From Candidatus Latescibacterota bacterium (GTDB lineage: Bacteria; Latescibacterota; UBA2968; UBA8231): a stretch of DNA of 64,000 nucleotides. Each line of letters starts with the position of its first letter. Within the stretch, counting starts at the first letter, position 1. The notes under the pieces are model-generated. The model saw only the letters and a program-made list of their open reading frames with translations. It was not told the origin of the DNA and ran no database searches. A program made the translations under genes and the position numbers. Positions 20,070-38,983 of this stretch are shown here, piece after piece. The DNA lies in the NCBI GenBank assembly GCA_965221775.1, contig CBDCSU010000005.1, positions 1,216,001-1,280,000 on the forward strand, read 5' to 3'.

Positions 20070-22181
20070 TTGACCCAGCCGAAGCCAGTGGTCACCCCAC
20101 ATCTCCAGGCCGCCCTCGAAGCCGTCCAGGCCGGCGATCCCGAGGCCCTCCGCCCCCTGCTGGAGGCCCACCCCTCCCTCGTGAACACCCCTCTGCCGCA
20201 CGACGGCCGCACTCGAAGACCCCTGCCGACGCTGCTGCACCGGGCCGCCCTCGGCTGGCGCGAAGGCGAGCTGCAGGTGGCGCAGCTCCTCATCGATCAC
20301 GGCGCCGACGTCAACAGCACCGAGGGAGGGGCCCTGGCGCCGCTGGAGATGGCGGCCTGGTCGCGGCACCCGGGGATGGCCGAACTGCTGATCGCCAACG
20401 GCGCCGACGTGGAGCTGCATGTCGAGGTGCGGCCGGTGGAGGTGGCCGTCCTCTACCATAGACGGGACATCTTCAAGCTCCTCATCGCGGCGGGGGCGAA
20501 GTACGACATCTCCCATACCCTGCGCCTGGGGATGATGGCGGAGACGCGGGCCCTGCTCGCCGCCGACCCGGCCATCGCCAACATCGAGACCGACCACGGG
20601 CTGCCCCTGAACCTGGCGGTGGGCAAGCCGGGGATCTTCAAGCTGCTGCTGCGCCACGGGGCGGACATCCACGCCCAGGACTCCCTCGGCCTGACGCCGT
20701 TGAAGGCGGCGCGCACTCCAAAGAGCGACAAGGTGGTGCGGACCCTGCTGGAGATGGGTGTAGAGGACGACATCTACGGAGCCCTCGCGGCCGGCGACGA
20801 GGCCCGGGTCGAGGCGATCCTGAAGGCCGACCCGGCGCAGGCGCACCCGGTGGGCTGCTGGCCGCAGCGGGGACCTCTCCCGCCCGTGTTCTGGGCGATC
20901 TGGTCCGGATCGACGCGCATTCTGGAGCTGATCCTGGAGCAGGACGTGCCTCTCGACACCCGGCCGAACCCGCTCGACACGGCGATCTCCTACGGCTACG
21001 ACGAGATGGTGCGCATGCTGCTGGACAAGGGGGCCTCGCCCGAGTGCGCGGACTGCTCCGACTGGCCGGGGGCCTCCACCTACCCCCCGTACCGCCCCCT
21101 GTCACTACCGGGGCTGCCCCGGCCCCACGTGCCGCTCTACATGGCCCTGCGGGGCGGAACCATCGCCGCCGTGGAGATGCTGCTGGAAGCCGGCGCGGAC
21201 CCGAACTGCACCCTGACGGGTTGGGCCGGACTCCAGTGGCCGGCGCGGGGCGGCGATCTGCGGCGGGTGAAGCTCCTGCTCGACCGGGGCGGCGATCCGT
21301 CGAGCCCCTGCGCCGAGAGCGCGCTCCGCCTGGCGGTGCAGCTGTGCCGGCGGCCCATGGTCGAGCTGCTCGTCACCCACGGCGTCGACATCGACACCAT
21401 CGACGCGGACGGCCGGGGCCTGCTCGACATGGCGGGCAAGTCCGACGGGCGGCCGCGCCGTGAGGGACGGGTCAAGACGACCGCCTTGCTGGAGGAGCTG
21501 ATGGGGCTCGTCCACGGGTCCGCCCGGGAGACGCGCTCGCTGCGCCTCCGCCAGGACCTCATGGCTGCGGTCATCGAGGGGCGCACCGGCGACCTCCGCG
21601 CCGTGCAGGCGGAGGCACCCGAGCTCTTCGAGAGGGAGCTGGTGAGGGACGAGCTGTTCCACTGGGCCGCCAGCCGGGGTCACGGCCACGTGGTCGATCT
21701 GCTGGTGGAACTGGGCGCGCCCATGACGATCAGCGCCGCCGCGGCGCTCGGGCGGGTGGAGCTCCTCGATTCCATGTTGAAGGCGGACCCGTCCCTGGTG
21801 GAGGGGCGCCTGACCCCCGAACAGACCGACTGGAACAAGCACCTGCCCTGGCACGAACATTCGCCCCTCATCGTCGCCGCCATGAACGACCGGGCGGAGG
21901 TGGCGGCGCTGCTGCTGGACCGCGGCGCCGGGATCGACCGCCAGGTCGGCTGGTACCAGAACACGGCCCTGCACCACGCCGTGAGCAGCGAGTCCACCGA
22001 GACCGTCCGGCTCTTGCTGGAAAGGGGCGCGGACGTCACGATCCGCAGCCGCGATCACCACCTGCCCACGGCCCTGGTGAAGAACTGGCCGCCCACGGTC
22101 TCGCGCCGCGAGATCAGCGACCTGCTCGTCGACCACGGGGCCAACCCGCAGGAACTACCCACCCACGGGGCCAGCGAATGA
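20070..22181 (+). CDS. Large ankyrin-repeat protein (close paralog of 17411-19504)
   Basis: Collinear with the 697-aa protein and identical over long stretches; the start may be GTG 20088. Confidence 0.9.
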   Translation: MTQPKPVVTPHLQAALEAVQAGDPEALRPLLEAHPSLVNTPLPHDGRTRRPLPTLLHRAALGWREGELQVAQLLIDHGADVNSTEGGALAPLEMAAWSRHPGMAELLIANGADVELHVEVRPVEVAVLYHRRDIFKLLIAAGAKYDISHTLRLGMMAETRALLAADPAIANIETDHGLPLNLAVGKPGIFKLLLRHGADIHAQDSLGLTPLKAARTPKSDKVVRTLLEMGVEDDIYGALAAGDEARVEAILKADPAQAHPVGCWPQRGPLPPVFWAIWSGSTRILELILEQDVPLDTRPNPLDTAISYGYDEMVRMLLDKGASPECADCSDWPGASTYPPYRPLSLPGLPRPHVPLYMALRGGTIAAVEMLLEAGADPNCTLTGWAGLQWPARGGDLRRVKLLLDRGGDPSSPCAESALRLAVQLCRRPMVELLVTHGVDIDTIDADGRGLLDMAGKSDGRPRREGRVKTTALLEELMGLVHGSARETRSLRLRQDLMAAVIEGRTGDLRAVQAEAPELFERELVRDELFHWAASRGHGHVVDLLVELGAPMTISAAAALGRVELLDSMLKADPSLVEGRLTPEQTDWNKHLPWHEHSPLIVAAMNDRAEVAALLLDRGAGIDRQVGWYQNTALHHAVSSESTETVRLLLERGADVTIRSRDHHLPTALVKNWPPTVSRREISDLLVDHGANPQELPTHGASE

Positions 22182-26765: not shown

Positions 26766-28700
26766 CTACAGGTTCTGCAGCGCCCACTCCCAGGCCAGGA
26801 TGACGATCTTCGGGCTCCACTCGCCGATGATGAGTCCCAGGAACAGCGGCTTCAGCGTGTTGTAGAGCCGCGGTCCGCCAAGGCGCAGGACGGCGGTCTT
26901 GATCGCCCAGGCGATGAGGATGCTGAGGAACATCTTGTGGGTCGCCAGGCTCACTGGAAAGCCGATCGGGTGGAAGGGCCACCACACGAAGCGTTGCCGG
27001 GCGAACATCAGCAGCCCCATGACCAGCGCCCCGATGCCGGTGTGGCCCCAATAGCCCCAGTTCGTCCCGGTACTCGTCTGCAGCCGGGCGGCCGCGTCCT
27101 GCCACTGGTAGTACCCCTGCTCCTTCAGCGTGTGGGTGATGTTCAGGCCCCCGTGCTCGTAGGCCGTGCCCAGGAAGACGGCCATGCCGCCGCAGATCGA
27201 CACCGCGATGGCGATCAGCATGCTGGCCAGGAGCATCCGGCGGTGTCGGCGGATGCTCTCCTCCACCACCTTGAGGCTCTGCGCCGCGCAGGTCATCACC
27301 AGGATGATCATGTCCGCCGCCCAGGCATAGGTGAAGCCGAGGGCGACGATCCCCGTCGGCCCCAGGGCGCGGGTCCCGAGGCCGCCGACGATGGCGTCGG
27401 AGGCGATGATGGGACAGGCGAACCAGGGGATCCCCCCTTCGCAGACGACGCGGGTGATCCCCAGGTAGAGGAGGAAGGCCAGCCCCAGGTAGAGGAACGC
27501 GATCCAGGCCGGGAGTCCGAGGAGCCAGAGCCAGAAGCAGATGAAGGAGAAGCTGCCGGCGAAGAGCAGGACGGCGGTGCGGTAGGACATGATCTCGTCC
27601 CCTTCGCTGGCGTCCACCTCCGACGACAGACCCAGGGCGCGGCGCCCGACGGCCACGATGTGCCTCCGCCCGTTCCACAGGCCGACGACCACCAGGGCGA
27701 TGAAGGCGCCCAACCCCTCGAAGGAGAAGGTCGTCGGCGAGCGCGTCCACGGACTCATGAGCGGGTCCGTGTCGCCGCCCCCCGTCAGCGTCGAGATGAC
27801 CTGGTAGGCCATGTAGACGAAGTAGTAGAAGCAGATCCCCAGGGTCACGTCGCGGCGGATGAAGTAGGCGAACCCGAGCATCATGAAGCTGATGCCGAGG
27901 CGCACCTGCGCGACCTCGCGGAACAGGTAGACGTACTGCCCGCCCACGTGGATCGGGTCCAGGGGGAAGTAGCGGGTCAGACCGTTGTTGAGGCCGATGA
28001 TGAAGGGGAGGATGAAACCGAGCCAGAAGATCCAGTTGCGGAACAGGGGCTTGACCAGACCGGGGCGCCTGCCTTCGTCGGCGTCGTCCTGGATCATGGC
28101 GATGGGCAGCTGCATCATCGGGTAGACGAGCCGCTCGTGGTCGATCCACTGCTTGCGCAGGATGACGGCGACCGAGACCATGGCGACCCAGAGACACATC
28201 GCCATCGGCCCCCAGCCGATCAGCAGGACCGGCAGCCACATCCCCCACGGCACCGTGCCGTCGCCGGACCCTTCGTAGAAGCCGCGGATGTCCTGGAAGT
28301 AATGGGAGGGTACCACCCAGCTCGGAATGTAGGGGATCACTGCCTCGGCCCAGGCGTTCTCCGGGGAGATGTAGTAGGCCATGGAGGTGATGTGGGGCAG
28401 CAGGTAGTCGGGCAGGCCGTTGGTGGCGACGCCGGAGCCGACGATCCACATCACGTAGACCTGGGCCAGCTCGGGCGGCGTCAGCACCCAGTCGCGCTTG
28501 AGGAGTCCCAGCAGGGGGTTCACGACCAGCGCCATCAGGAACAGCATGAGGTTGGCGCCGATGGTGTAGTGCCAGGTGGAGAAAGCTCCGACGCGGAGGA
28601 CGTAGGTGGAGTAGTTGAACCCCGCCCCGACGACGATGCACCCGAGGGTGCCGACGATGAGCCCGCGGTAGGTGCAGCCGAAGACGCGAGGTGTGTCCAT
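26766..28700 (-). CDS. Polytopic membrane protein, DUF6785/DUF6784-like (putative peptide transporter)
   Basis: Many TM helices; LRKQW...ERL.YP...LP, WWPFHPIG, GG..LY...KP.F.GLI.G. Confidence 0.75.
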   Translation of the reverse strand: MDTPRVFGCTYRGLIVGTLGCIVVGAGFNYSTYVLRVGAFSTWHYTIGANLMLFLMALVVNPLLGLLKRDWVLTPPELAQVYVMWIVGSGVATNGLPDYLLPHITSMAYYISPENAWAEAVIPYIPSWVVPSHYFQDIRGFYEGSGDGTVPWGMWLPVLLIGWGPMAMCLWVAMVSVAVILRKQWIDHERLVYPMMQLPIAMIQDDADEGRRPGLVKPLFRNWIFWLGFILPFIIGLNNGLTRYFPLDPIHVGGQYVYLFREVAQVRLGISFMMLGFAYFIRRDVTLGICFYYFVYMAYQVISTLTGGGDTDPLMSPWTRSPTTFSFEGLGAFIALVVVGLWNGRRHIVAVGRRALGLSSEVDASEGDEIMSYRTAVLLFAGSFSFICFWLWLLGLPAWIAFLYLGLAFLLYLGITRVVCEGGIPWFACPIIASDAIVGGLGTRALGPTGIVALGFTYAWAADMIILVMTCAAQSLKVVEESIRRHRRMLLASMLIAIAVSICGGMAVFLGTAYEHGGLNITHTLKEQGYYQWQDAAARLQTSTGTNWGYWGHTGIGALVMGLLMFARQRFVWWPFHPIGFPVSLATHKMFLSILIAWAIKTAVLRLGGPRLYNTLKPLFLGLIIGEWSPKIVILAWEWALQNL

Positions 28701-28877
28701 GCGAGTAGAGGTCAGGCGAGCGCACCCTCCGCGGCCGGACGGAAACCGGTCAGGGTCGGCTCGACACTATAGCCACGGAGATGCTGCTATACAAGGCGGG
28801 GAGCCTCGGCGATTCCTAAGACCGCATGGACTCCTCCGTTGTGGCTACACCTTCAGGGGAAACCCGCGGCATGACGG

Positions 28878-29133
28878 GCTTCAGTGAGGCCGGGGCACCT
28901 TCCGCCCCGGAAACTGGACGCTACCCTCGCGCCACGGCTGATGGGCTGCTTGTGCTTCAATGAGGCCGGGGCTACTTCGCCCGGAAACTGCCGATTCCGG
29001 TTCTTCATACGACGGTTCGAGGAGCTTCAATGAGGCCGGGGAACCTTCACCCCGGAGACCCGGTGGTTCCGGCCTTCAGGAGCCGGGTACCATCCGTGCT
29101 TCAGTGAGGCCGGGGAACCTTCGCCCCGAAGGT
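28878..29133 (-). CRISPR. Degenerate type I-G (I-U) CRISPR mini-array, 4 repeats and 3 spacers
   Basis: Repeats at 28878-28914, 28954-28988, 29024-29059 and 29098-29133 (GCTTCARTGAGGCCGGGG...CCCGGAAAC-like, 35-37 bp); spacers of 39, 35 and 38 bp. The minus-strand repeat ends CCTCA(T/C)TGAAGC, as I-G repeats do. Confidence 0.9.
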
Positions 29134-29137
29134 GGAG

Positions 29138-30064
29138 CTATGGCTGCCATGACACCTCCGGGGGCCCGAAGGTGCCATAGCCGCCTTGTCCGGACCGGCG
29201 GATGGGGGACCGGAGGATCCTGAAGATCCCCCAGGAACGGAACCAGCGGCCGCGGTCGGAGGCGGCCGGGTCATAGCCATGCGCCAACAGCGACTTGACC
29301 GCATGGGGCGACGCCGGTATGTGCCAGAGCGGCCAGGAGTAGGCCCCTGCCTTCCACGAACCGGAGCATCCCTGAGTGAGCGTTCGTTTCGGGCTTCCGA
29401 ATACGGGATGCCGGCTCAATCCCAGGATAGCCAGGGCTTCGGGGCCCGGGTTCGTGAGCTTCGGGTCGGGTCCTGACTTCAGCGCGGGATTGCAGGCTCT
29501 CAGAGCATACACCCGGTCATCAACGATGTCCCAGCCCAGAGAAGGGAGCTTGCTCGCATACTCCCATGGACCCTGGAGACCGGAGAGCAAGTCCCCACGT
29601 GAGACTCCGCTGAGGATTCGGCGAGCCGTGGCGAGGAACTTCTGCTGCCCCGCCGAGAAATAGAGGTCCGACGGCTTGGCGACGCCTTGATTGTCCAGAC
29701 TTCCTTCGGCTACCAGGGCGGCAATCAGACCGCCGGTCAAGACGCACCGGTCGGCCGAGGAGAGATACGTCCGCAGATCGTCAGGGGTGAGCTTCAGTTC
29801 ATCCCCTTTGGGCATGGCCGCGCCGTTCCGTAGCCTGGGGTTGGTTGCGTGGCTGTCCCTCCACAGGACAAGGGCCTTCATGCACTGATCCGCCAGGCGC
29901 TCAAGGCTGAACTCTCCATCCACGACTGCATGGGGAACGACGCCATCCTTCCACCAGAGCCGAGGCTTCTCACGCTCAGTGGCAAATGCAAGTTGAACGC
30001 CGACGGCGGCGAGAAAGCCCAAGGGGTTTGTTCCTTCGAGACCCGTGAGGTCGGTCTGGTTCAT
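29138..30064 (-). CDS. cas8g2: Type I-G CRISPR-associated Cas8g2 (Cas8u2-like) large subunit
   Basis: GLEGTNPLGFLAAVG, SAGQQKFL, GPWEY, DRVYAL...P, WPLW; position directly after cas3. Confidence 0.75.
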   Translation of the reverse strand: MNQTDLTGLEGTNPLGFLAAVGVQLAFATEREKPRLWWKDGVVPHAVVDGEFSLERLADQCMKALVLWRDSHATNPRLRNGAAMPKGDELKLTPDDLRTYLSSADRCVLTGGLIAALVAEGSLDNQGVAKPSDLYFSAGQQKFLATARRILSGVSRGDLLSGLQGPWEYASKLPSLGWDIVDDRVYALRACNPALKSGPDPKLTNPGPEALAILGLSRHPVFGSPKRTLTQGCSGSWKAGAYSWPLWHIPASPHAVKSLLAHGYDPAASDRGRWFRSWGIFRILRSPIRRSGQGGYGTFGPPEVSWQP

Positions 30065-32786
30065 GGTGCTCGGCCTCCTCGCCGGTCTGTTGATGATCGG
30101 CCAGCCGCAGGATCGCCTCGAACCAGGCCAGGCCGTGGTATCCGTACCGTTCGACCAGGCGCCAGAAACGGTCGGCCATGTCGAGAGCCAGGGTGCTTTC
30201 CACGAGATCGGAGTTGGCCTCCAGGAGGTGTCCGGCCAAGGTACAGGTGAGTCTCCGAGGCTCCGGATCCTCAACTATGGGCAACAACGGACGCCCCCAT
30301 CCGTGGTGAGTTCCGACCAAGTAGAGAACCAGGTCTTTATCGTGGGCACCCTCCAGGATGCCCGGGTTCGACGCTGCCATGGCGACGCTGGCCACTTCAT
30401 GTCGCATTCCCGTCGGACAGTGGCCCCCTCTTGCAACCCTCCGCAGAGATTTGGCAAGGGGCTCCCTCTGCATTTCCAATTCCACTGGATCACCCCCCAC
30501 CAACTCGGCCTGGAAGCGCCTGTCCACCTTCCCGAGGTCGTGTAGAAGGCCGGCCAGGCGCAGATCCCCCCGCAGTTCGGAGGGAAAGCCCAGAGACTCG
30601 GCGATGTGGCCTGCCCGCTCCCTTACACCATCGAGATGCCGGCTCAGCGTCACACCCGTACCGATCAGGGAGCCCGACTGGTCCGAGCCGTCCATGGCAG
30701 CAGTGTCCACTATCGGGCCTTTGGTCCCGCCATGCCGCTCTGTCAAGACGTAATAGCCATGGTCTGAACCGTGTTCCCCGAGCCCTACCGAGTCTATTTC
30801 AAAGCCGTCGCCCAACCTCTCCAGGGTCTCGCGCTCCCAGTCGAGTCGTTGGCCAGAGTCGGCGCTCCATCGATGCAGCCAGTCTCCGACTCGTTCCTCA
30901 TTGGATGAACCCTCTGCAGGATCGACGGAAGGCAACGGCGGGGACACGATGCCGGGCAGTCGCGGATCGAGGCGCAAGGTTGCTCTTCGGCTGCAGGCGA
31001 CTTGCGCCACATCTCCAAGGTCGGCCACATGCTCTCTCGAAGAGGGATCCCAGTTCGCGGCTCTCAGGCCGCCTCGACGGGGATCCACGATGAGAATGTC
31101 CCCTGGATCAACCGCATCAGCCGGAATGCACTCCGGACCGCTGTCGAATCCCATCCAGCGCACCCATTCGGTCTCTCGGTCGGCACCTCGATCACCATCC
31201 GCGGTGTCCACCTCGCCGCAGCTGGAAAGCCAGGACTTGGCGGCATCGATGGAAACTGGCAGGAACTCCGACGGCCGCGGCGGGACCAGCCGAAGTGCCT
31301 CCTCGGATCTGTCCCATCGCCAGACGATGGAGACATCCGGAGCACACCTCCTCCCCAGACCGCGCAGGAACCAATCAACGGAAGGCTGCACGATCGGCTG
31401 CGGGCTGGTCTGGGTCCAGGCGTCCATGTGCGTCTTCAGCAGCCGGGGAGCTCGAGCCCTTGGAGCAAGAGCCTCGCTTGGGAAGTCCTGGAGAGAGGCT
31501 GGCCCCACATCGATCGGACCATCCTTGCTTCTGCGTTCGAGTTCGGCCCAGGTCGCCTTGACGGAGGAAACCACCGGCCTGCAGCCCACGATCCAGGCTC
31601 GAGCGGACCTTCCCGTCCGCGAGGAGTACCTGCCACGCCGGTCGAGGCGGCCGAGTCGCTGTCGCAGGCTGTCTATGGGAGCACACTCGGTGATGAGGGC
31701 GTCGAAGGTGAAGTCGGCCCCGACCTCGATGGCTTGCGTGGAAACGACGATGGTCAGTCCCTCCCCTCGCCCTGCACCATCCGGATCAAGGGCGGAACCG
31801 ATTCTTGCCACGGTGTCCAAGCGGTCCAATGGCCGCATGCGTCCGGTGACCAGAAAGGTGGTATAGCCTCTATCTCGGAGCGTTCGATGGACTTCCCGGG
31901 CCATTCGCACCCGGTTCACCACGACCCCGACGGTTCGGATGTCCTGGCGAGATTCCAGCTTGCCCACTGACTTGACGATCTTGAGAACGGCACCCGGCAT
32001 GAGGTCGTGACTCGCCAGCGGCACCAGCTCCGCCTCCTTGGCCGCCTGCACCCGGCGGCGCAGTTCAGCACACCTCTCCAAGTCGGCGACAGGATCAAGC
32101 CTGAAGGGTTCAGCGTCGCTGTCGGTGGGGGTCGCCGACATCTCAACCAGGCCGTAGCGTTCAGGCGGCCCCCAGCACCGCAAGGCTCCTACCTGCGCCA
32201 GTGTCTCTGCGAAGGGAAGGCCTGGATGGAGTTCGTCAAGGATCACCAGACAGTCGTTGCCTGCAAGGCCCGCGTGAATCGGCCACATTGTCGGCTTCAC
32301 GCCCTGGCCACGGAAGAGCAAGCGGGAGCCGAACTGATCCACGGTGGAGACAGCCACCCATGGTTGATCCGGGCGGTGACTCCACTCGTCCACGGGAACG
32401 CCGCCCCGCAAGGCGGCGCATCCCAACGGTTCTCCCGGGCTCAAGGTTTCAAGCCGTTGTCTCACTCTTCGCAGGATCGGCGTGTCGCCTGCCTCTATGC
32501 GGTCGAGGATCCGTAGCGCCCGCTTGCATGCCTGATGGACGACGACGCGTCTGTCCACGACGAAGACGATTCGCCGTGGCGCATCTGCGGGCCTGAGGGC
32601 AAGGGCAAAGACGGCCACATCGAGCACGGCGGTCTTCCCGGAGCCGGTGGGCAGGTCGATCACCTTCGGCCACTCTCCGCTCTCGAGGACCTGACTCGCC
32701 AGACGTTGCTGCCAGGGGAAGGGACTCTGACCGTGCACGTCCTGGAAGAAGAACGGAAAGTGGCCGGGCAGGAGGTCTTCACTCAT
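29976..32786 (-). CDS. cas3: Type I-G Cas3 helicase with C-terminal HD nuclease
   Basis: PFPWQ, LPTGSGKT, DELH, MSATP, TQAIEVGAD, QRLGRLDRRG; C-terminal H...LHDLGK...RHE...HHG...LAD; ATGA overlap with csb2. Confidence 0.93.
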   Translation of the reverse strand: MSEDLLPGHFPFFFQDVHGQSPFPWQQRLASQVLESGEWPKVIDLPTGSGKTAVLDVAVFALALRPADAPRRIVFVVDRRVVVHQACKRALRILDRIEAGDTPILRRVRQRLETLSPGEPLGCAALRGGVPVDEWSHRPDQPWVAVSTVDQFGSRLLFRGQGVKPTMWPIHAGLAGNDCLVILDELHPGLPFAETLAQVGALRCWGPPERYGLVEMSATPTDSDAEPFRLDPVADLERCAELRRRVQAAKEAELVPLASHDLMPGAVLKIVKSVGKLESRQDIRTVGVVVNRVRMAREVHRTLRDRGYTTFLVTGRMRPLDRLDTVARIGSALDPDGAGRGEGLTIVVSTQAIEVGADFTFDALITECAPIDSLRQRLGRLDRRGRYSSRTGRSARAWIVGCRPVVSSVKATWAELERRSKDGPIDVGPASLQDFPSEALAPRARAPRLLKTHMDAWTQTSPQPIVQPSVDWFLRGLGRRCAPDVSIVWRWDRSEEALRLVPPRPSEFLPVSIDAAKSWLSSCGEVDTADGDRGADRETEWVRWMGFDSGPECIPADAVDPGDILIVDPRRGGLRAANWDPSSREHVADLGDVAQVACSRRATLRLDPRLPGIVSPPLPSVDPAEGSSNEERVGDWLHRWSADSGQRLDWERETLERLGDGFEIDSVGLGEHGSDHGYYVLTERHGGTKGPIVDTAAMDGSDQSGSLIGTGVTLSRHLDGVRERAGHIAESLGFPSELRGDLRLAGLLHDLGKVDRRFQAELVGGDPVELEMQREPLAKSLRRVARGGHCPTGMRHEVASVAMAASNPGILEGAHDKDLVLYLVGTHHGWGRPLLPIVEDPEPRRLTCTLAGHLLEANSDLVESTLALDMADRFWRLVERYGYHGLAWFEAILRLADHQQTGEEAEHHEPDRPHGSRRNKPLGLSRRRRRSTCICH

Positions 32787-34318
32787 CGAGACTCCGGCAC
32801 TGGGCGCATCAGTCCCAGCCCCATGAATCGACCGGCCCCGAGCATCAGTGGCCCCTCTACGGGGTGCTTGAATGTCACCGCTGCGTGAACGAGCTGGCGT
32901 CTGACCAGTGTGCCCTCCCGCCCTCTCTGGCTGAATGGCGGATAGCGCCCGGCCGGCGTGGACCCCGCGATGAACGGGCTCAGCGCAATCTCCACTGCCG
33001 AGGGTTCCGGCAATCCGACGTGCACGCAGGCGGCTGCGACGGCCCCCTCGGCCAGTCTCCAGGCCTCGGCTCGCGCACCGACCCTCCCCGCCCTCAGGCT
33101 GCCAGGATGTCTTGGCAGCGCAATGGGCGTCGCCGACACCCACCGCCGGGAAGGACGATGCCAGGCACTTGGCCGCAGGTCGGCCGCGTCGGGAGGCCCG
33201 CGGTGGCGGTCCATGCGGAGTACGCCCTGAGATCCCAGAGTGAGCCTGAGGGGATAGGGCTGCTGGGGAGCCCCCTGCTCCCACCTGCGGACCGCCCGGA
33301 AAAGGGCCCGGCGCGTGTCGTCTCCCAGGGATCTCGGCACGGACAGGGCGATACCGAGCAGACGCGCGTCCCCGCGCTCAGAGCCGATGTTCGGCAGAGG
33401 AAGGAACGCCACATGGGGGTCGCAGGTCGGCTTGCCATCCGGCCTGTGGCCGCTCAGCTCTTCGGGAATCGGATCCTCGGCGTGCTTGAGAGTGGCTCTT
33501 CGCATGGCCGCCGCAGAATCCACTGCTCGTGTAGCTGGAAGGAAGCGGCAGTTCTGCGCGAATGCGAAGACGATCCATTCGCCAAGAGTGTTGGGCTGCA
33601 AGGTTGGCTCATCCTGCACGGTCTCCGCTGTGGAACTGTATCGAACGTCCGTGTATGGCAGGGCTCGGGGCCTGACGCCCTGGTGTCGGAGATACTGCCG
33701 TTGGAGCGCTCCAAGTTGGCCCCGCCTTACAGCGCGCAGGCCATCTGTACCGCGGCCTGGCGTGTAACTGGCGCGAATAGACTCCCGCACCACACGGCAG
33801 GAAACGAGGGAAGAGGAGTGGCCCAGCCGGGCAACTCGGCTGAGAAGGTGGTCCATGGTCTCGCCCATGCCTCCTGGAGCAGCCTCTTCCCAGAGATATG
33901 TAGCCCGGGGCCGGCGGGGAGTCACGGACGGGAAGAACCGCTCCTGGGGGAGAAAGTTCCTGTCCTGTTTGTCCCTGCTGTCTCTTGGCTCAGTCCGATG
34001 GTCCGGGAGTATGCGCATCGATGAAGAGGGGTTCGAGTCGATGATGCGAACATCGTTCACCGGAACGAAATGCGAGACTACCCTGCGCGGCGCGGCTTCC
34101 GACGCGGCGATGGCGGGTGCTCCCTGGGCCTCGAGCCATTCCAGGGCATCGCGTTCCTCGGGATCGCGACCATCCTCGGCCCAGACCGCCACGAGTGCAG
34201 AGAACACACGCGCCGGGTGCGGTGGCCACTCCCCCCGCCGGCGGTCGTTGTGGAACGTGGCCACGTACCGCTCCGTCAGGAAGTTCACTTCGATGCCGAA
34301 ATTCGCCAAGCGAGACAT
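32783..34318 (-). CDS. csb2: Type I-G Csb2 (Cas5/Cas6 fusion)
   Basis: EWPPHPARVFSALVA, WVSATP, C-terminal Gly-rich loop GPLMLGAGRFMGLGLMRP. Confidence 0.92.
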   Translation of the reverse strand: MSRLANFGIEVNFLTERYVATFHNDRRRGEWPPHPARVFSALVAVWAEDGRDPEERDALEWLEAQGAPAIAASEAAPRRVVSHFVPVNDVRIIDSNPSSSMRILPDHRTEPRDSRDKQDRNFLPQERFFPSVTPRRPRATYLWEEAAPGGMGETMDHLLSRVARLGHSSSLVSCRVVRESIRASYTPGRGTDGLRAVRRGQLGALQRQYLRHQGVRPRALPYTDVRYSSTAETVQDEPTLQPNTLGEWIVFAFAQNCRFLPATRAVDSAAAMRRATLKHAEDPIPEELSGHRPDGKPTCDPHVAFLPLPNIGSERGDARLLGIALSVPRSLGDDTRRALFRAVRRWEQGAPQQPYPLRLTLGSQGVLRMDRHRGPPDAADLRPSAWHRPSRRWVSATPIALPRHPGSLRAGRVGARAEAWRLAEGAVAAACVHVGLPEPSAVEIALSPFIAGSTPAGRYPPFSQRGREGTLVRRQLVHAAVTFKHPVEGPLMLGAGRFMGLGLMRPVPESR

Positions 34319-34323
34319 GCTGC

Positions 34324-35577
34324 CTACTCAGGGGAATGTTCGGTGGCCGACAACTTTCTGCTGCGGAGAATCAGTTCGATCAGCTTTGGTGCTGGTGTCA
34401 GGCGAAGGCCACCGGTTTCCCAACCGATTCCGACCGCTTCCGCGCGCTCGGCAGCAGAAGACAGGACTTCGGCAGCCATGCTCTTGTCCAACTGGACGAC
34501 CTCGCTGGCAGAGCCGTCGCGGGAGAGCATGCTGGCCCGTAGCGGGTGGGTTGGAAGGAGGAGACATCGTGACCGCAGGTCGAAGTCCTTCTCGTACTGA
34601 TAGGCAATGGCAGCGACGCCCAATGCTGCAACCGCGGTGCGGGCCGCTGTCTCTGCTTCGCTGTCGAACCCCTTGAACCTCAGGCGGCGAAGTGCCGCGA
34701 AAGAGATAACGGTGGTCTGCCGGGCCTTCGAGATCGTGACGCCGCCAGCCTCGGCGTCTATGGAAGGAACGATGTTCCCGTGGTTGATCTTTGACGGCTG
34801 ACCAGCCTCCCCGCTCATGCTGCCCCGCGAAGCGTATACAGGGTTCCCCTTCTTGTCCTTCTCCGCTGCCTCCGGGTCGTGAGTCCAGACCTCGGCCGGA
34901 TCCTCGCTGTTGAGCACGCGATCCTCCGGCGCAACCCTTTCGATCTGGAGTGGGTCTATGCGGCTTCCCACCTTCTTCCCCACAGCGGCGTCGAAACCGA
35001 CGATTTCCGATACATAGGCGCGTTGGAAACGCGGGCCGAGTCCGCCTTTCGGGCCCGTCGAATCCCACATACCGAACAACAGGGAGGTCGGCGAGTACCG
35101 GAACAGATCGGTAGCATTGCGCGGGGTTGCGTCGGTAATCGCTTGTCCCACATCCGACAGTCGAAACAGCGTTCCGCCGAACAGGCTGTCCCGGAAAATC
35201 GCATCTGCCAGGCGATGCGGCGCTTCGAGGACGGTGACCTTGTCATAGTCCGTTGCGTTCCCGGTCCCAGAGAAGTCCACGTACGGGACCGGGAAGGAGA
35301 GTTCCTCTCGCTCCCACCCCTCCAACAGGGCCAGCTCCGCCCTGTTGGCTTGTGACGCCACGGAGTCCAGCAGGACCGTAATGCTCGTCCTCTCCCCTTG
35401 TCCAACTTGACGCTCCTCAATGGCGTACCGGTGCTCGAGGCGTCCCTCCACCCTGTAAGATGGGGGGAAGACCTTGTCTCCCTCGCCACCAGCAGGCTGC
35501 AATGTCATGCGGGACCGCAAGGCCACCGCGCCGCCGGCGACAGCATCAAACAGGCGATCGAATGTGAGTCGCGACAC
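34324..35577 (-). CDS. csb1: Type I-G Cas7 backbone (Csb1)
   Basis: LQPAGG.GDKVFPPSY, LLDSVASQANRAE, APHRLADAI, PTSLLFGMWDS, SRIDPL, DLRSRC; AGGAGG RBS before GTG 35577. Confidence 0.93.
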   Translation of the reverse strand: MSRLTFDRLFDAVAGGAVALRSRMTLQPAGGEGDKVFPPSYRVEGRLEHRYAIEERQVGQGERTSITVLLDSVASQANRAELALLEGWEREELSFPVPYVDFSGTGNATDYDKVTVLEAPHRLADAIFRDSLFGGTLFRLSDVGQAITDATPRNATDLFRYSPTSLLFGMWDSTGPKGGLGPRFQRAYVSEIVGFDAAVGKKVGSRIDPLQIERVAPEDRVLNSEDPAEVWTHDPEAAEKDKKGNPVYASRGSMSGEAGQPSKINHGNIVPSIDAEAGGVTISKARQTTVISFAALRRLRFKGFDSEAETAARTAVAALGVAAIAYQYEKDFDLRSRCLLLPTHPLRASMLSRDGSASEVVQLDKSMAAEVLSSAAERAEAVGIGWETGGLRLTPAPKLIELILRSRKLSATEHSPE

Positions 35578-35609
35578 CCTCAGCCTCCTGAAAAAGGCTG
35601 TGTGCGGCT

Positions 35610-36110
35610 TCAGGGAGGGCAGGCGCTGGGCGCGCGCCTCCGGGCGCAGGTGTGTGTACTCGCCACTGGAGTGCCCAGCTCCGCCTTTTCCTCGGGTGCA
35701 ATGCTGGCCCGAGCTTTGGCCAGTTGCCGCTTGATGCGTCCCTTCCGGCCTGCCTCCAGGGACCTCGTGCGCTTTTCCGCGCAGACGAGGCATCGCCGGG
35801 CCGCCGGTCCCCTGTGCTCGATAGAGACCCCGCAATCCGCACACTCCCGGCGGCGTCGGCCGAGGGCCAGGGCTCGGATCGTCTCGCGCACGAGACTACG
35901 GACGCGCACCGGCGAGATTCCGTGCCTTGCGGCGATGGCGTCGACTCGGAGCTCCTCCCCCTTGAGGCCGTAGTACTCCGAGAGGATCTGCCGCGCGCGC
36001 TCCGGCAGACCCGCGATCAGATCGAGCGCCCAGGAGCGGATCTCGGCATCGGGTACTCCCTCGTGAAACTGGCTCCACAGGAGTATGCGCAGGGAACGGT
36101 GATGGTTCAC
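35610..36110 (-). CDS. Sigma70 region-4-like HTH protein with CxxC...CxxC zinc finger
   Basis: LPERARQILSEYYGL.GEEL...AIAARHGISPVRVRSL...IRAL (region-4 pattern), then CADCG...RRCLVC and a basic tail; AAGGAGG RBS; first gene of the cas operon. Confidence 0.75.
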   Translation of the reverse strand: MNHHRSLRILLWSQFHEGVPDAEIRSWALDLIAGLPERARQILSEYYGLKGEELRVDAIAARHGISPVRVRSLVRETIRALALGRRRRECADCGVSIEHRGPAARRCLVCAEKRTRSLEAGRKGRIKRQLAKARASIAPEEKAELGTPVASTHTCARRRAPSACPP

Positions 36111-36302
36111 TTCACTTCGCCTCCTTCTGTTTCGTGGCAGAGCCTTCAGCCTCGAGAGAATTCCCCTATCAGCTGGCCGAGACTGCGTGCTTCGATTCCA
36201 GGCGCGTGGGATGGTATGGAAGGCCTGCCTCGAAGAGTGATTGATAACACGCTTATACCTTCAGAGCTGTCCACAACGATCCTGGTCCCTGAGTTTGAAG
36301 TC

Positions 36303-36388
36303 GGGACAGCAACCCCTCATGCCCGAGTAGCCCACCCGATTCGGGAGGCCGCCCTGTCGGGCAGGAGCCCGGGAGGGGTTGCTGTCCC
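36303..36388. ncRNA. Candidate structured RNA element, copy 1
   Basis: 16-bp perfect inverted repeat GGGACAGCAACCCCTC/GAGGGGTTGCTGTCCC enclosing two short hairpins. Confidence 0.5.
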
Positions 36389-36617
36389 TTCGAGACGCAC
36401 ACACACAGACACATAACTCACGCAAAGTGGACACTTTCAAGGTTTTTCATTTATTGATAACACGCTTATACCATTCATGCTGGCACCTGGCCAGTCAGGA
36501 GACCAGAAGGGCTCGATGCTCGACTCTGCAAACTGTACATAGGGCCGATTGTGAACCATTGCAAGAGCAGGACCCACGAGCGTGATCCCCTTGTATCGAT
36601 CCTCCTTTGAACGAATC

Positions 36618-36708
36618 GGGATAGCAGCCCCTCACTCCTACAGGAACCTCCCGGAGGAGGGACCGAGAGACCCTACTGGGTTTTGAGCCCGTGAGGGGTT
36701 GCTATCCC
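36618..36708. ncRNA. Candidate structured RNA element, copy 2
   Basis: 18-bp inverted repeat GGGATAGCAGCCCCTCAC/GTGAGGGGTTGCTATCCC (one G-U pair on the + strand); compensatory changes relative to copy 1. Confidence 0.5.
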
Positions 36709-37024
36709 TCTCATCGCTACGATAGCAATTGCTGTGGGAGGTATGCAACTAACAATTACCCAGAGAGCGGCCATTGATTGCAGGTGGGCTTCGGAGAGTG
36801 TTTGATAACACAATTGGTGAATTGCTACCTGTGGGTTCATCTTTTGGGGTGTGAGCGTGTGCTCAAGGACTTTTCCGCCTGGGCCTTGCGCGCTCGGCGT
36901 ACTGAGACCGGGCGACCCGGACCGCTGCCGAGATGGCATCCCGAGTCGGCGGAATCTCTCTGATGGGGAAAAACCTGCGAGAGACGCCCATCCACCGGGG
37001 ATGGCGAGGGGCGCCGGCCGGCCC

Positions 37025-38983
37025 TCAGCCCGGGCGGTACTCCAGCACCACCCGGTTCTCCGGCCCCCGCAGGCCCATGGTGTTCACCGCCCGCGCCCGC
37101 AGGCGGTTGCGCCCCGGGCGCAGCTCCCACTCGAAGACGGGACCGCTCGCCTCCCACTTCCCCCGGTCCAGGCTGACCTCGAAGCGGTCCAGGTGGGGGA
37201 TGGGGCCGGAGAGCCGCACCGTCAGCGCCGCCGCCGTCTCCGTGTCCTGCAGGTCGATCCGCGTGCGGTTCAGGTCCCAGTAGAAGTCCTCGGGCCGGTT
37301 GGTCTGCAGCGAGTACTCGGGATACCTCGGGTCGAGGCTGTCCGTCCACCACAAGTGGCCGTCCCAGTGGTACTGGTCCATCCCCTGCTCCAGCTCCTGC
37401 GGCTCGGGGCGGTAGAGGTGGTCGTTGCGCAACGGCATGCCGAAGCGCTGGTAGAGCTGAGCGAACATCGTCCGGAGCCGCTCGTCGGGGACGGGCGGCG
37501 GCGGCACGAACTCCAGGTCCTCCATCCGGCCGGCGGCGCCGAGGCGGTGCATCTCCAAGGCGTTGATCGGCACGCCGGCCTCCTCGTACTGGAAGGCGAC
37601 CTCGTGGCCGGGCAGGAGGCCCGGGTCCTGGAGGATCCACTTGCCGTGCTCGTCGGACCAGATCTCCGCCAGGCAGTGGTGGTCGACGATCACGGGCCGG
37701 GCGTGGTAGCCGAGGGAGCCGGCGCACTGGCTGAAGACGGCGGCGTAGTGGGTGCACATGCCCAGGGCCAGGTTCTGCGGCGCCAGCTCCAGGATCTCGA
37801 GGGCGTCCCACTGGGGGCAGTAGTTGTACTCGTTGTCGTTCCACCCCTCCCACTGCCGGCGGACCCACTGGCGCAGCAGGGCGAACCTCTCCATCTCGGT
37901 CTGCCCGGGGGCCACGACCTCCTCCAGGCGGTACTTCTCGCGCAGGTGGCGCATGCGCGGGTGGTGCGGGTCGGCGTAGTCGAAGGGGTAGGAGGAGACG
38001 GCCAGGTCGTTCTCCGGCGCCGAGATCACCTCGATCCGGCGGCGGTTCGCCCCGACGGCGCGCCCGGAGGCCTCGATGGTGACGCTCTTCAACAGCGGCG
38101 TGACGGCGGGATCGCCGCTGGAGAGGGTTGCCCGCCATTGCAAGAACCGCGCCCCGGGCAAGGGCTCCCCCGAATCGGCGGCGCGCCAGGAGGTCCACTC
38201 GTCCGAAGCGTACAACGCCGTCGAGCCGGATCTCACCTCGAAGCGCACCGAGGTCCTCGGCGGCATTTCGGTAGCGGCCGACAGGCGCAGGGCCTTCAGG
38301 TCAAGGCCGGGAGCGACCGCCTCCTCCGCGGCCAGGTCGATGACAGGAGAGGTGGCCACACCCTCCCGCGGATGGCCGCGGACCCTCAGGCGGACGACGT
38401 ATTCCCCCGAGAGGTCGTTGTCCGCTCCGAGCATGTCCCCCTTCCACTCGCCGCGGCCCTCGAGGCGCTTGAAGCTGTTGCGGCCGGGCTCGTCGGCGTC
38501 GATGACCAGCGACCCGGCGCCGGAGAAGACCAGCTCGTTGCGGCCCGGGCGCAGCCAGCGGCCGGGGATCGTCTCACGGTCCCAGCCGCCGGTGAGCATC
38601 CTCTCGAGGTCCTGCACGTGGCGGATCTCGTGCCCGTTGACCGAGATGAGCAGGGGCTCCTCCTCGGTGCCGCCGCCCCCGTGGAACAGGACCTCCGCCG
38701 ACTCCACCGCCGCCGGCAGGTCGAAGAGCTTCTTCGCCTCCACGGCGGGCGTCAGGCTCTCACGGATCTTGGAGCTGCGCGCCATGGCGTCGGCGATCAG
38801 CCACGTCGGCGCCAGGCAGAGCCCGCCCTCGTCGGCGCAGTAGCCGGTGAAGCGGTCGCGGGTGCAGCCGGCGAGGGCTTCGCCTTCGAGGGTGGTCTTC
38901 CACTCGGTCATGGGTGGTGCGGCGGAGGTGGTGCCGGCGGACACCAGCAGCGCGGCCAGGGCGAGGCGGGCGAGGCGGGGCAC
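37025..38983 (-). CDS. Secreted transglutaminase-like domain protein
   Basis: Signal peptide after GGAGG + GTG 38983; GMCTHYA, HCLAEIWS and WILQDP give a Cys-His-Asp triad pattern. Confidence 0.75.
   Translation of the reverse strand: MPRLARLALAALLVSAGTTSAAPPMTEWKTTLEGEALAGCTRDRFTGYCADEGGLCLAPTWLIADAMARSSKIRESLTPAVEAKKLFDLPAAVESAEVLFHGGGGTEEEPLLISVNGHEIRHVQDLERMLTGGWDRETIPGRWLRPGRNELVFSGAGSLVIDADEPGRNSFKRLEGRGEWKGDMLGADNDLSGEYVVRLRVRGHPREGVATSPVIDLAAEEAVAPGLDLKALRLSAATEMPPRTSVRFEVRSGSTALYASDEWTSWRAADSGEPLPGARFLQWRATLSSGDPAVTPLLKSVTIEASGRAVGANRRRIEVISAPENDLAVSSYPFDYADPHHPRMRHLREKYRLEEVVAPGQTEMERFALLRQWVRRQWEGWNDNEYNYCPQWDALEILELAPQNLALGMCTHYAAVFSQCAGSLGYHARPVIVDHHCLAEIWSDEHGKWILQDPGLLPGHEVAFQYEEAGVPINALEMHRLGAAGRMEDLEFVPPPPVPDERLRTMFAQLYQRFGMPLRNDHLYRPEPQELEQGMDQYHWDGHLWWTDSLDPRYPEYSLQTNRPEDFYWDLNRTRIDLQDTETAAALTVRLSGPIPHLDRFEVSLDRGKWEASGPVFEWELRPGRNRLRARAVNTMGLRGPENRVVLEYRPG

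What the first reader, a model, noticed from the sequence alone, without database searches (positions are those of the whole stretch)
35610..36110. Sigma70 region-4 HTH plus Cys4 zinc finger as first gene of the cas operon
Seen: a 166-aa ORF with a strong RBS, ending 32 bp before csb1. It has an L..R.R.IL..YYGL.GE....IA...GIS..RVR pattern followed by CADC...CLVC. Known: sigma region 4 reads -35 elements and contacts RNA polymerase; it is not a standard I-G component. Inference: either a dedicated cas regulator, or a Cascade-associated factor linking RNA-guided binding to transcription, conceptually like reported Cas12f-derived/sigma-factor pairings.
Basis: partly seen in the sequence, partly recalled or inferred. 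Interest (0 to 1): 0.75.

Follow-up and report, generated by a model that had tools for sequence, protein, structure and literature searches.

The report
Orphan sigma-domain zinc-finger gene heading cas operon
A small gene that joins the promoter-reading domain of a sigma factor to a zinc finger sits first in a horizontally acquired CRISPR-Cas operon; it is real but a one-off found in no related operon, and is most likely a local transcription regulator.

Summary
Pfam calls Sigma70_r4 above its cut-off (E 1.1e-8). An AF2 model matches only sigma domain 4 structures. A CxxC-x13-CxxC ribbon and a basic helix follow. There is no room for sigma region 2, so it is not a sigma factor.

It is an orphan. 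1.84 billion representative proteins hold no full-length relative. None of 80 related type I-G cassettes and none of 75 same-family genomes encode it.

The gene, an 818-nt leader, csb1-csb2-cas3g-cas8g and a 4-repeat array form one 8.1-kb island (28856-36928) that is missing from same-genus genomes. The genome has no cas1. The leader carries three copies of a 10-mer found nowhere else in the genome, alternating with two very stable hairpins.

Best reading (about 0.5): an island-borne DNA-binding regulator of its own operon. A passenger relic is the main rival (0.25). The Cascade-to-RNA-polymerase idea has almost no support (0.05). Interest is moderate.

The parts
35610..36110 (-). 166-aa ORF (P0001): sigma region-4 HTH + C4 zinc ribbon + basic helix + low-complexity tail; GTG start, TGA stop
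36120..36125 (-). ribosome-binding site AGGAGG, 9 nt before the GTG
   Evidence: read
35868..36017 (-). sigma-70 region 4 (residues 32-81). Residues 18-31 also align to the region 3/4 junction of FliA.
   Evidence: Pfam PF04545 E 1.1e-8; Foldseek top hits all sigma domain 4; phmmer alignment to FliA 182-237, E 0.12
35781..35843 (-). zinc ribbon C90-x2-C93-x13-C107-x2-C110. It belongs to a repeat module (C.DCG..I..RG..A.RC..C) seen in HNH-bearing and phage-like proteins.
35706..35789 (-). long basic helix after the ribbon (AF2 helix 108-135)
36240..36259 (.). Box 1: exact 20-nt repeat, 129 nt upstream of the GTG. Contains the 10-mer core TTGATAACAC (+ strand).
36453..36472 (.). Box 2: second exact copy of the 20-mer
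36802..36811 (.). Box 3: third copy of the 10-mer core only
36303..36388 (.). hairpin B: 16-bp perfect stem, 54-nt structured loop; -62 kcal/mol, z -5.65 (minus strand)
36618..36708 (.). hairpin A: 18-bp stem with one A.C on the minus strand (G.U on the plus strand); -57.9 kcal/mol, z -5.2. A diverged duplicate of hairpin B.
34324..35577 (-). csb1 / cas7g (417 aa)
   Evidence: PF09617 E 7e-49, TIGR02570
32783..34318 (-). csb2 (cas5-cas6 fusion)
   Evidence: TIGR02165 E 1e-84
29976..32780 (-). cas3g helicase-nuclease (start approximate)
   Evidence: TIGR02621 E 4e-213, 710.8 bits; 182 of 190 conserved columns kept
29138..30274 (-). Cas8g-type large subunit ('Cas3-extension family'); the true start is probably inside this ORF
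   Evidence: NF049934 E 2.5e-84; PADLOC Cas8g E 5e-54
28878..29137 (-). mini CRISPR array: 4 non-identical repeats and 3 spacers (38, 34, 40 nt). It starts at the cas8g stop codon, with no leader.
28856..36928 (.). the whole 8.07-kb island, absent from same-genus genomes
   Evidence: empty sites in G068, G073, G075; GC 55-66% against 70%

Best explanation
P0001 is a real small DNA-binding protein. It is built from the C-terminal third of a group-3-like (FliA/SigB-like) sigma factor, namely the end of the region 3/4 linker plus region 4. This is fused to a C4 zinc ribbon and a basic helix of a type that circulates in phage and HNH-type mobile proteins. It cannot act as a sigma factor because it has no region 2. 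It travels as the first gene of an 8.1-kb, adaptation-less type I-G island.

It most likely acts as the island's own transcription factor. The proposal is that it binds the box repeated three times in the 818-nt leader and so sets, and probably autoregulates, transcription of the P0001-csb1-csb2-cas3g-cas8g-array operon.

Shown: the domain content, the operon position, the island membership, the uniqueness of the boxes, and the presence of the gene in contigs of an RNA library.

Inferred: DNA binding, the boxes as its sites, and the direction of regulation.
For: Domains: Pfam Sigma70_r4 above its cut-off. An AF2 model whose listed PDB matches are all sigma domain 4. The FliA alignment starts in the 3/4 linker. 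The zinc-ribbon module is shared with P0018, P0027, P0005, P0011 and the L090 ORF.

Operon: strong RBS, a 32-nt gap to csb1, and no terminator-like site found between 35900 and 37100.

Island unit: G068 joins window 28711 directly to 37016. G073 and G075 keep homology up to 28855, and homology resumes at 37027 (G073) and 36929 (G075). So the leader, P0001, the cas genes and the array are one insertion. P0001's codon-position GC matches the island's cas genes, not the host gene.

Candidate operators: the 10-mer core occurs 3 times in the window and 3 times in the whole 5.36-Mb genome, all in the leader, with 0 expected by chance. The 20-mer is exact in two copies.

Conservation within the species: the whole stretch, leader included, is held at 95-99% identity in sponge-metagenome runs from several studies, with indels only outside the ORFs.

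Expression hint: one metatranscriptome library (X20) has 4 contigs at 99% or better. One covers 35721-36158, which is most of the ORF plus 48 nt of 5' UTR. The others lie in csb1 and csb2.

Precedent: cas operons driven by a nearby dedicated sigma-type regulator are known (DdvS; passages of PMC6061681).
Against: No binding or regulation was tested.

There is no comparative support. 0 of 80 related cassettes have a relative (best tblastn E 0.12). DNA homology among the cassettes starts at csb1, so the cassette works elsewhere without this gene.

No sigma-70-type promoter consensus was found in the leader (0 found). The nearest box is 129 nt from the start codon.

Allele P0028 differs at 4 of 166 residues, two of them inside region 4 (A33V, A39E). 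This may mean weak constraint.

The model confidence is moderate (mean pLDDT 68.6; below 50 for residues 1-19, 154-157 and 164-166).

RNA-library contigs do not prove transcription; DNA carry-over is possible.
Confidence: 0.5

Rival explanations
1. Passenger or relic. A fragment of a sigma gene was joined to a mobile-element zinc-ribbon module and happens to sit upstream of csb1. It is translated or not, but plays no part in cas function and may be decaying.
For: It is a singleton: only itself among 5.8 billion clustered proteins, and no full-length relative among 1.84 billion representatives. 0 of 80 related cassettes and 0 of 75 same-family genomes have a specific match. It looks like a truncated sigma factor, aligning to FliA from residue 182 of 254. 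Alleles carry 1-4 substitutions, and one frameshifted allele exists. The nearest ESM Atlas clusters and the PHROG hit are viral. The insertion site is a variable hotspot.
Against: The reading frame is intact in 4 of 5 cluster members, and no indel is listed in the ORF in 3 of 3 DNA runs laid. It has a strong RBS and a tight operon position. Its GC3 pattern is like the neighbouring cas genes. Both domains keep their signature residues, all four Cys included. The leader next to it has an ordered box-hairpin layout that is hard to see as junk.
Confidence: 0.25
2. An RNA polymerase-directed sigma-4 module. The protein docks on the beta-flap as a region 4 supplied in trans. It could be a portable -35 reader that lets a promiscuously transferred cassette be transcribed in a foreign host, half of a split sigma factor, or a sigma competitor.
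For: The domain is closest to genuine sigma region 4, not to LuxR/GerE-type regulators. The end of the 3/4 linker is kept. The cassette has moved between many phyla, so a self-contained transcription module would be useful. Two-part sigma factors exist (recalled, not checked here).
Against: No region-2 partner was found. 10 open frames (stop to stop) overlapping the leader gave no family below E 0.05 and no sigma family in Pfam, and the ORF cannot be extended upstream. 80 of 80 related cassettes do without it. No binding test was run.
Confidence: 0.12
3. A Cascade-associated factor. The protein rides on the type I-G effector and couples crRNA-guided DNA binding to transcription, as a natural type I counterpart of dCas12f-sigmaE.
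For: It shares an operon with Cascade genes. One database allele (P0029, 595 aa) is a frameshift fusion of residues 1-144 to the whole of Csb1. The system has lost adaptation: no Cas1 hit in a 96.8%-complete genome, and a short degenerate array. Engineered Cascade-RpoD activators exist (title and abstract of PMC9194131 in the listing).
Against: Cas3g keeps Walker/DExH and HD matches and 182 of 190 conserved columns, whereas the dCas12f systems are nuclease-dead (passages of PMC12259090). No spacer matches the host genome beyond 14-18-nt chance hits. The fusion allele is not seen in 3 of 3 DNA runs laid and may be an assembly error. The protein lacks region 2, so it could not open a promoter on its own. 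It is absent from all 80 related cassettes.
Confidence: 0.05

Closest known systems
Region 4 (domain 4) of sigma-70-family factors, group-3 type (FliA / SigB-like)
   Same: Sequence profile above the Pfam cut-off and the same fold in the model. The YYGL-type 4.1 helix and the HTH align with FliA and SigB.
   Different: No region 2 or 3, so it cannot bind or open a -10 element. Total length is 166 aa. It carries a zinc ribbon and a basic helix instead.
DdvS/DdvA control of the Myxococcus xanthus type III-B CRISPR-Cas operon (PMC6061681; abstract and passages read)
   Same: A sigma-family gene encoded next to a cas cluster that drives a polycistronic cas mRNA reading into the array.
   Different: DdvS is a complete ECF sigma with a membrane anti-sigma and needs CarD-CarG. 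P0001 is a region-4-only protein, sits inside the operon and has no anti-sigma neighbour.
dCas12f-sigmaE RNA-guided transcription (PMC12259090; abstract and passages read)
   Same: Genetic linkage of a sigma-type protein with an RNA-guided DNA-binding effector.
   Different: There the effector is nuclease-dead, the sigma is full length and the linkage recurs across a clade. Here Cas3g looks active, the protein is a sigma fragment and the linkage is a single case.
Zinc-ribbon repeat proteins of mobile elements (P0005, P0011, P0021 with HNH-like ends; L090:2998-3426 in a phage-like context)
   Same: The same ribbon signature. 70% identity over residues 88-117 to L090, followed by a basic stretch.
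   Different: Those proteins have one to several ribbons. By eye none shows a sigma domain; they were not run through Pfam here.
ECF-like sigma gene at the head of another I-G operon (L087:1582-2178, Planctomycetia MAG)
   Same: Sigma70_r4 E 3.4e-8. The stop lies 2 nt before the csb1 ATG, on the same strand.
   Different: 198 aa with an ECF-like N-terminal half. No zinc ribbon. Not specifically related to P0001 (BLASTP E 0.57). A WYL-type regulator lies upstream.

Membership tests
sigma-70 family sigma factor | region 4 (-35 recognition, beta-flap binding) | tested here: met
   PF04545, 34.8 bits against a cut-off of 24.1; structural matches
sigma-70 family sigma factor | region 2 (core binding, -10 recognition and melting) | tested here: not met
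   No r2 hit in Pfam or NCBIfam. The first in-frame start is the GTG at 36110, leaving only 31 residues before region 4. 10 upstream open frames gave no sigma family hit.
type I-G (Cas) protein families | match to a Cas family model | tested here: not met
   No Cas family in NCBIfam and none in PADLOC
type I-G (Cas) protein families | recurrent presence in I-G loci | tested here: not met
   0 of 80 related loci by tblastn. 1 of 114 upstream same-strand ORFs has any Sigma70_r4, and that one is unrelated. 10 of 27 upstream ORFs from 8 of 11 further family-level loci were scanned, and 0 of 10 hit Sigma70_r4.
dCas12f-sigmaE-like RNA-guided transcription systems | nuclease-inactive effector | tested here: not met
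   Cas3g matches the helicase and HD models and keeps 182 of 190 conserved columns
dCas12f-sigmaE-like RNA-guided transcription systems | physical effector-sigma contact | tested here: inconclusive
   A co-folding job gave no verdict; no experiment was possible
TraR/DksA C4 zinc-finger proteins | family profile match | tested here: not met
   TIGR02419, 14.3 bits against a cut-off of 59.7
local transcription regulators of cas operons (functional class) | sequence-specific binding in the cas promoter region and an effect on cas transcription | not testable with these tools
   Only candidate sites were identified

The most novel reading that the evidence does not exclude
The protein is a sigma region 4 supplied in trans. 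It docks on the RNA polymerase beta-flap and brings polymerase to DNA, either at the three leader boxes (a self-contained transcription kit that lets this promiscuous I-G cassette fire in any host) or while riding on Cascade, as in the fused allele P0029. The second case would be a natural type I counterpart of dCas12f-sigmaE.
Probability: 0.06. Interest if true: 0.85.

Novelty: new variant of a known kind. Interest (0 to 1): 0.38.

Why it matters
Genes for regulators next to cas operons are known. A sigma-fragment-plus-zinc-ribbon protein inside one is not: the paper searches found no description, and no protein database searched here holds a relative.

If it regulates the island, it shows how a cas cassette that hops between phyla of sponge symbionts can pick up its own control module. 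If it touches RNA polymerase or Cascade, it would extend RNA-guided transcription to type I systems.

As it stands it is a single-lineage curiosity with untested function. The surrounding island and the box/hairpin leader are at least as interesting as the protein.

Tried and rejected
1. Co-folding of P0001 with Csb1, both given as alignments, gave no verdict (score 0.00). It says nothing either way.

2. Homolog hunts that found nothing specific: the word-index search (itself only); phages and plasmids by tblastn; metagenome contigs (one ribbon-only hit); 75 same-family genomes (only weak region-4 matches to ordinary sigma genes, best E 1.1e-5).

3. A CRISPR-repeat-like element in the leader (the cr-like autoregulatory RNA idea): best local alignment score 18 against a shuffled mean of 19.1. 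Rejected.

4. Self-targeting spacers: none.

5. Rfam on 28500-37200: only sub-threshold CRISPR-DR16 hits in the array and one chance snoRNA hit. Nothing for the hairpins.

6. The hairpins or boxes as genome-wide repeats: rejected, as they are unique to this locus.

7. Target-site duplication at the island ends: no shared word of 7 nt or more.

8. A conserved upstream gene across related cassettes: none. The clusters are small and unrelated: transposase, cas4-cas1 on the other strand, toxin-antitoxin, and others.

9. In the RNA library X20 no contig lay on the hairpin/box region, cas3g, cas8g or the array. A part without cover proves nothing.

10. An earlier-findings look-up returned nothing.

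11. The paper search for type I-G in sponge symbionts gave 0 papers.

Full report
WHAT IS THERE

The ORF of the finding is real but lies on the minus strand (36110 down to 35610). It has 166 codons and a GTG start. AGGAGG lies 9 nt upstream. TGA is followed 32 nt later by the GTG of csb1, which has its own AGGAGG.

Pfam gives Sigma70_r4 at E 1.1e-8, 34.8 bits, above the curated cut-off of 24.1, for residues 32-81. NCBIfam gives only sub-threshold matches to the C-terminal ends of RpoS, FliA and SigB-type models.

An AF2 model from a shallow alignment of 13 rows has mean pLDDT 68.6, reaching 77-88 in the HTH and 81-92 around the ribbon and the helix after it. All 50 listed Foldseek PDB matches are sigma domain 4, alone or inside holoenzymes. 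The best is 4g8x_A, TM 0.87 by target length, rmsd 1.0 A, E 0.015.

A phmmer alignment to FliA (E 0.12) runs from query residue 18. So the protein keeps the end of the region 3/4 linker and looks like the last third of a group-3 sigma factor.

Behind it come C90-x2-C93-x13-C107-x2-C110, a long basic helix (108-135) and a low-complexity tail.

The first in-frame start codon after the upstream stop is the GTG. There is therefore no room for region 2, and no region-2 hit was found. It is not a sigma factor.

HOW ALONE IT IS

- The word-index search of 5.8 billion clusters found only the protein's own cluster: 5 members; the representative was seen on 4 contigs.
- HMMER against 1.84 billion representatives gave 26 proteins at E 0.001 or better. 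One is the protein's own cluster representative. The rest match one half only. They are either proteins with many tandem region-4 copies (for example P0003, 1457 aa, 7 stretches) or proteins with one to several copies of the same zinc-ribbon module, some with HNH-like ends.
- P0011 aligns over query residues 8-123, but by eye it is a ribbon-repeat protein without a sigma motif. I did not run Pfam on it.
- 75 genomes of the same taxonomic family gave only weak region-4 matches to ordinary sigma genes.
- Phage and plasmid collections gave nothing.
- JGI metagenomes gave one ribbon-plus-basic-repeat protein in a phage-like neighbourhood.
- The nearest ESM Atlas clusters are viral (score 0.89, a lead only).
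- The one PHROG hit is a phage sigma family.

THE SURROUNDINGS

Downstream on the same strand are Csb1/Cas7g, Csb2, Cas3g and a protein that NCBIfam calls the I-G 'Cas3-extension family' and PADLOC calls Cas8g. A four-repeat, three-spacer array follows, starting at the cas8g stop codon without a leader.

The genome (96.8% complete) has no Cas1 hit and one Csb1. The Csx17 model also found nothing, but its control rang nowhere, so that search is uninformative. The spacers have no match in the genome beyond chance.

Cas3g keeps 182 of 190 columns that are at least 95% conserved in 65 relatives. Csb1 keeps 108 of 109 and Csb2 keeps 59 of 60. The interference machinery looks intact.

THE CASSETTE ELSEWHERE

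A scan of species-representative genomes with Csb1 found 259 relatives, of which the best 80 loci were kept. They show 45-83% identity and lie in MAGs of very many phyla, including one archaeon. Many carry sponge-symbiont names.

The order csb1-csb2-cas3g-cas8g is found in these loci: 80, 80, 78 and 73 of 80 have the respective gene. 41 of 80 also show cas4-cas1 within the fetched flanks.

DNA homology to the window starts 8 nt inside csb1 and ends at the end of cas8g.

No locus has a relative of P0001 (best tblastn E 0.12, on the wrong side and strand). Of 114 same-strand ORFs that end just upstream of csb1, one has Sigma70_r4. It is an ECF-like 198-aa gene in a Planctomycetia MAG, with its stop 2 nt before csb1. 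It is unrelated to P0001.

In the window's own taxonomic family, Csb1 relatives are at most 55% identical over a partial match (51% for the best full-length one). So this cassette came in from outside. Of 27 upstream ORFs in 11 of those family-level loci, I scanned 10, taken from 8 of the loci. None is sigma-like.

THE ISLAND

Three same-genus genomes have the two flanking host genes but not the island. G068 joins window 28711 to 37016. G073 and G075 keep homology up to 28855 and resume at 37027 and 36929, with 1202 and 350 nt of unrelated filler.

The island is therefore about 28856-36928. It contains the leader, P0001, the four cas genes and the array as one block. There is no target-site duplication of 7 nt or more.

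Its GC is 55-66% against 70% for the genome. P0001's codon-position GC is like that of the cas genes.

THE LEADER

The 818 nt of the island upstream of the GTG are a diverged tandem duplication. Read on the minus strand they run: box 3, 93 nt, hairpin A, 145 nt, box 2, 64 nt, hairpin B, 43 nt, box 1, 129 nt, GTG.

The 10-mer core of the box occurs three times in the window and three times in the whole genome, all here. The full 20-mer is exact in boxes 1 and 2.

The hairpins fold at -62 and -57.9 kcal/mol (z -5.65 and -5.2). One stem position changed on both sides between the copies (C-G to T-A). Another is A.C on the minus strand but G.U on the plus strand.

Nothing like the leader exists in the 80 related loci. 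Rfam has no family for it. Ten open frames overlapping the leader gave no family below E 0.05 and no sigma family in Pfam. No sigma-70 consensus promoter or terminator-like site was found.

PRESENCE AND EXPRESSION

The stretch is held by sponge-metagenome runs of about ten studies. Three DNA runs laid cover it fully at 95-99% identity. The indels listed all lie in non-coding parts, and none is in the ORF (58 further substitutions were not shown by the tool).

One metatranscriptome library has four contigs at 99% or better: two in csb2, one in csb1 and one over 35721-36158. This is consistent with transcription through the gene from a start at least 48 nt upstream. It is not proof, because these are contigs and DNA carry-over cannot be excluded.

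Cluster alleles differ by 1-4 residues. One, P0029, is a frameshift after residue 144 that fuses the protein to Csb1 through the open frame upstream of csb1. It is not seen in the three DNA runs laid.

READING

The plain explanation is an island-borne transcription factor that acts on its own leader (0.5).

The main rival is a functionless passenger (0.25), given that every related cassette lives without it.

A polymerase-directed sigma-4 supplied in trans (0.12) and a Cascade-bound factor (0.05) are not excluded, but they have little behind them. Cas3g looks active, there is no region-2 partner, no self-targeting spacer, and the fusion allele is unconfirmed.

Known comparators are DdvS (PMC6061681; abstract and passages read) and dCas12f-sigmaE (PMC12259090; abstract and passages read). 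The canonical I-G effector description comes from 10.1101/2022.08.08.503147 (passages read). Engineered Cascade-RpoD activators were seen only in a search listing (PMC9194131). That two-part sigma factors exist is recalled, not checked.

No paper describing a sigma-fragment gene in a type I-G locus turned up in the searches.

Noticed in passing
window 36111-36928: The leader is built of three copies of a 10-mer found nowhere else in the 5.36-Mb genome, alternating with two diverged copies of an about 90-nt, very stable hairpin (z about -5 to -6). One stem position is compensated between the copies. Another pairs only on the plus strand. These could be operators plus two small structured RNAs.
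   Followed up: partly
window 28856-36928; loci L010-L089: The csb1-csb2-cas3g-cas8g cassette is shared at 62-83% Csb1 identity by MAGs of many bacterial phyla and one Nitrosopumilaceae archaeon, many with sponge-symbiont names. The window's own taxonomic family has full-length relatives of only about 50% identity (55% over one partial match). This points to wide horizontal spread within one habitat.
   Followed up: partly
window 28878-29137 and the whole genome: An adaptation-less locus. The array has four non-identical repeats and begins at the cas8g stop codon with no leader. No Cas1 hit was found in a 96.8%-complete genome. No spacer matches the genome.
   Followed up: yes
window 28855/28856: Contigs of two other runs (X7, X8) carry 210 extra letters here, at the far end of the array. 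That is about three repeat-spacer units, so the array length differs between strains.
   Followed up: no
protein P0029 (cluster of P0001): A 595-aa database allele is a frameshift fusion of residues 1-144 of the sigma-4/zinc-finger protein to full-length Csb1. It may be real or an assembly error; its DNA could not be fetched.
   Followed up: partly
L087:121-3445: A Planctomycetia MAG has a WYL-type regulator, then an ECF-like sigma gene whose stop lies 2 nt before csb1. This is an independent, unrelated case of a sigma-type gene heading a I-G operon.
   Followed up: partly
proteins P0003, P0004, P0006, P0014, P0026: Proteins made of 2 to 7 or more tandem sigma region-4 domains (up to 1722 aa) turned up as best matches. 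This architecture is odd and I cannot explain it.
   Followed up: no
L090:2998-3426: A 142-aa protein with the same zinc ribbon (70% identical over 30 residues) followed by RDPEYR-type basic repeats, next to small HTH (Cro/CI-like by eye) genes. It suggests the ribbon is a mobile-element DNA-binding module.
   Followed up: no
window 28711-37016 against L113, L114, L115: The site between the DUF6785/DUF6784 gene and the 675-aa gene is a variable hotspot. Three same-genus genomes have 0, 350 and 1202 nt of unrelated filler there.
   Followed up: partly
window 17594-17733, 20271-20410; 63315-63464: Two pairs of 41-nt repeats spaced 99 nt apart in two places, probably repeat-domain genes, and a 75-nt tandem duplication.
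   Followed up: no
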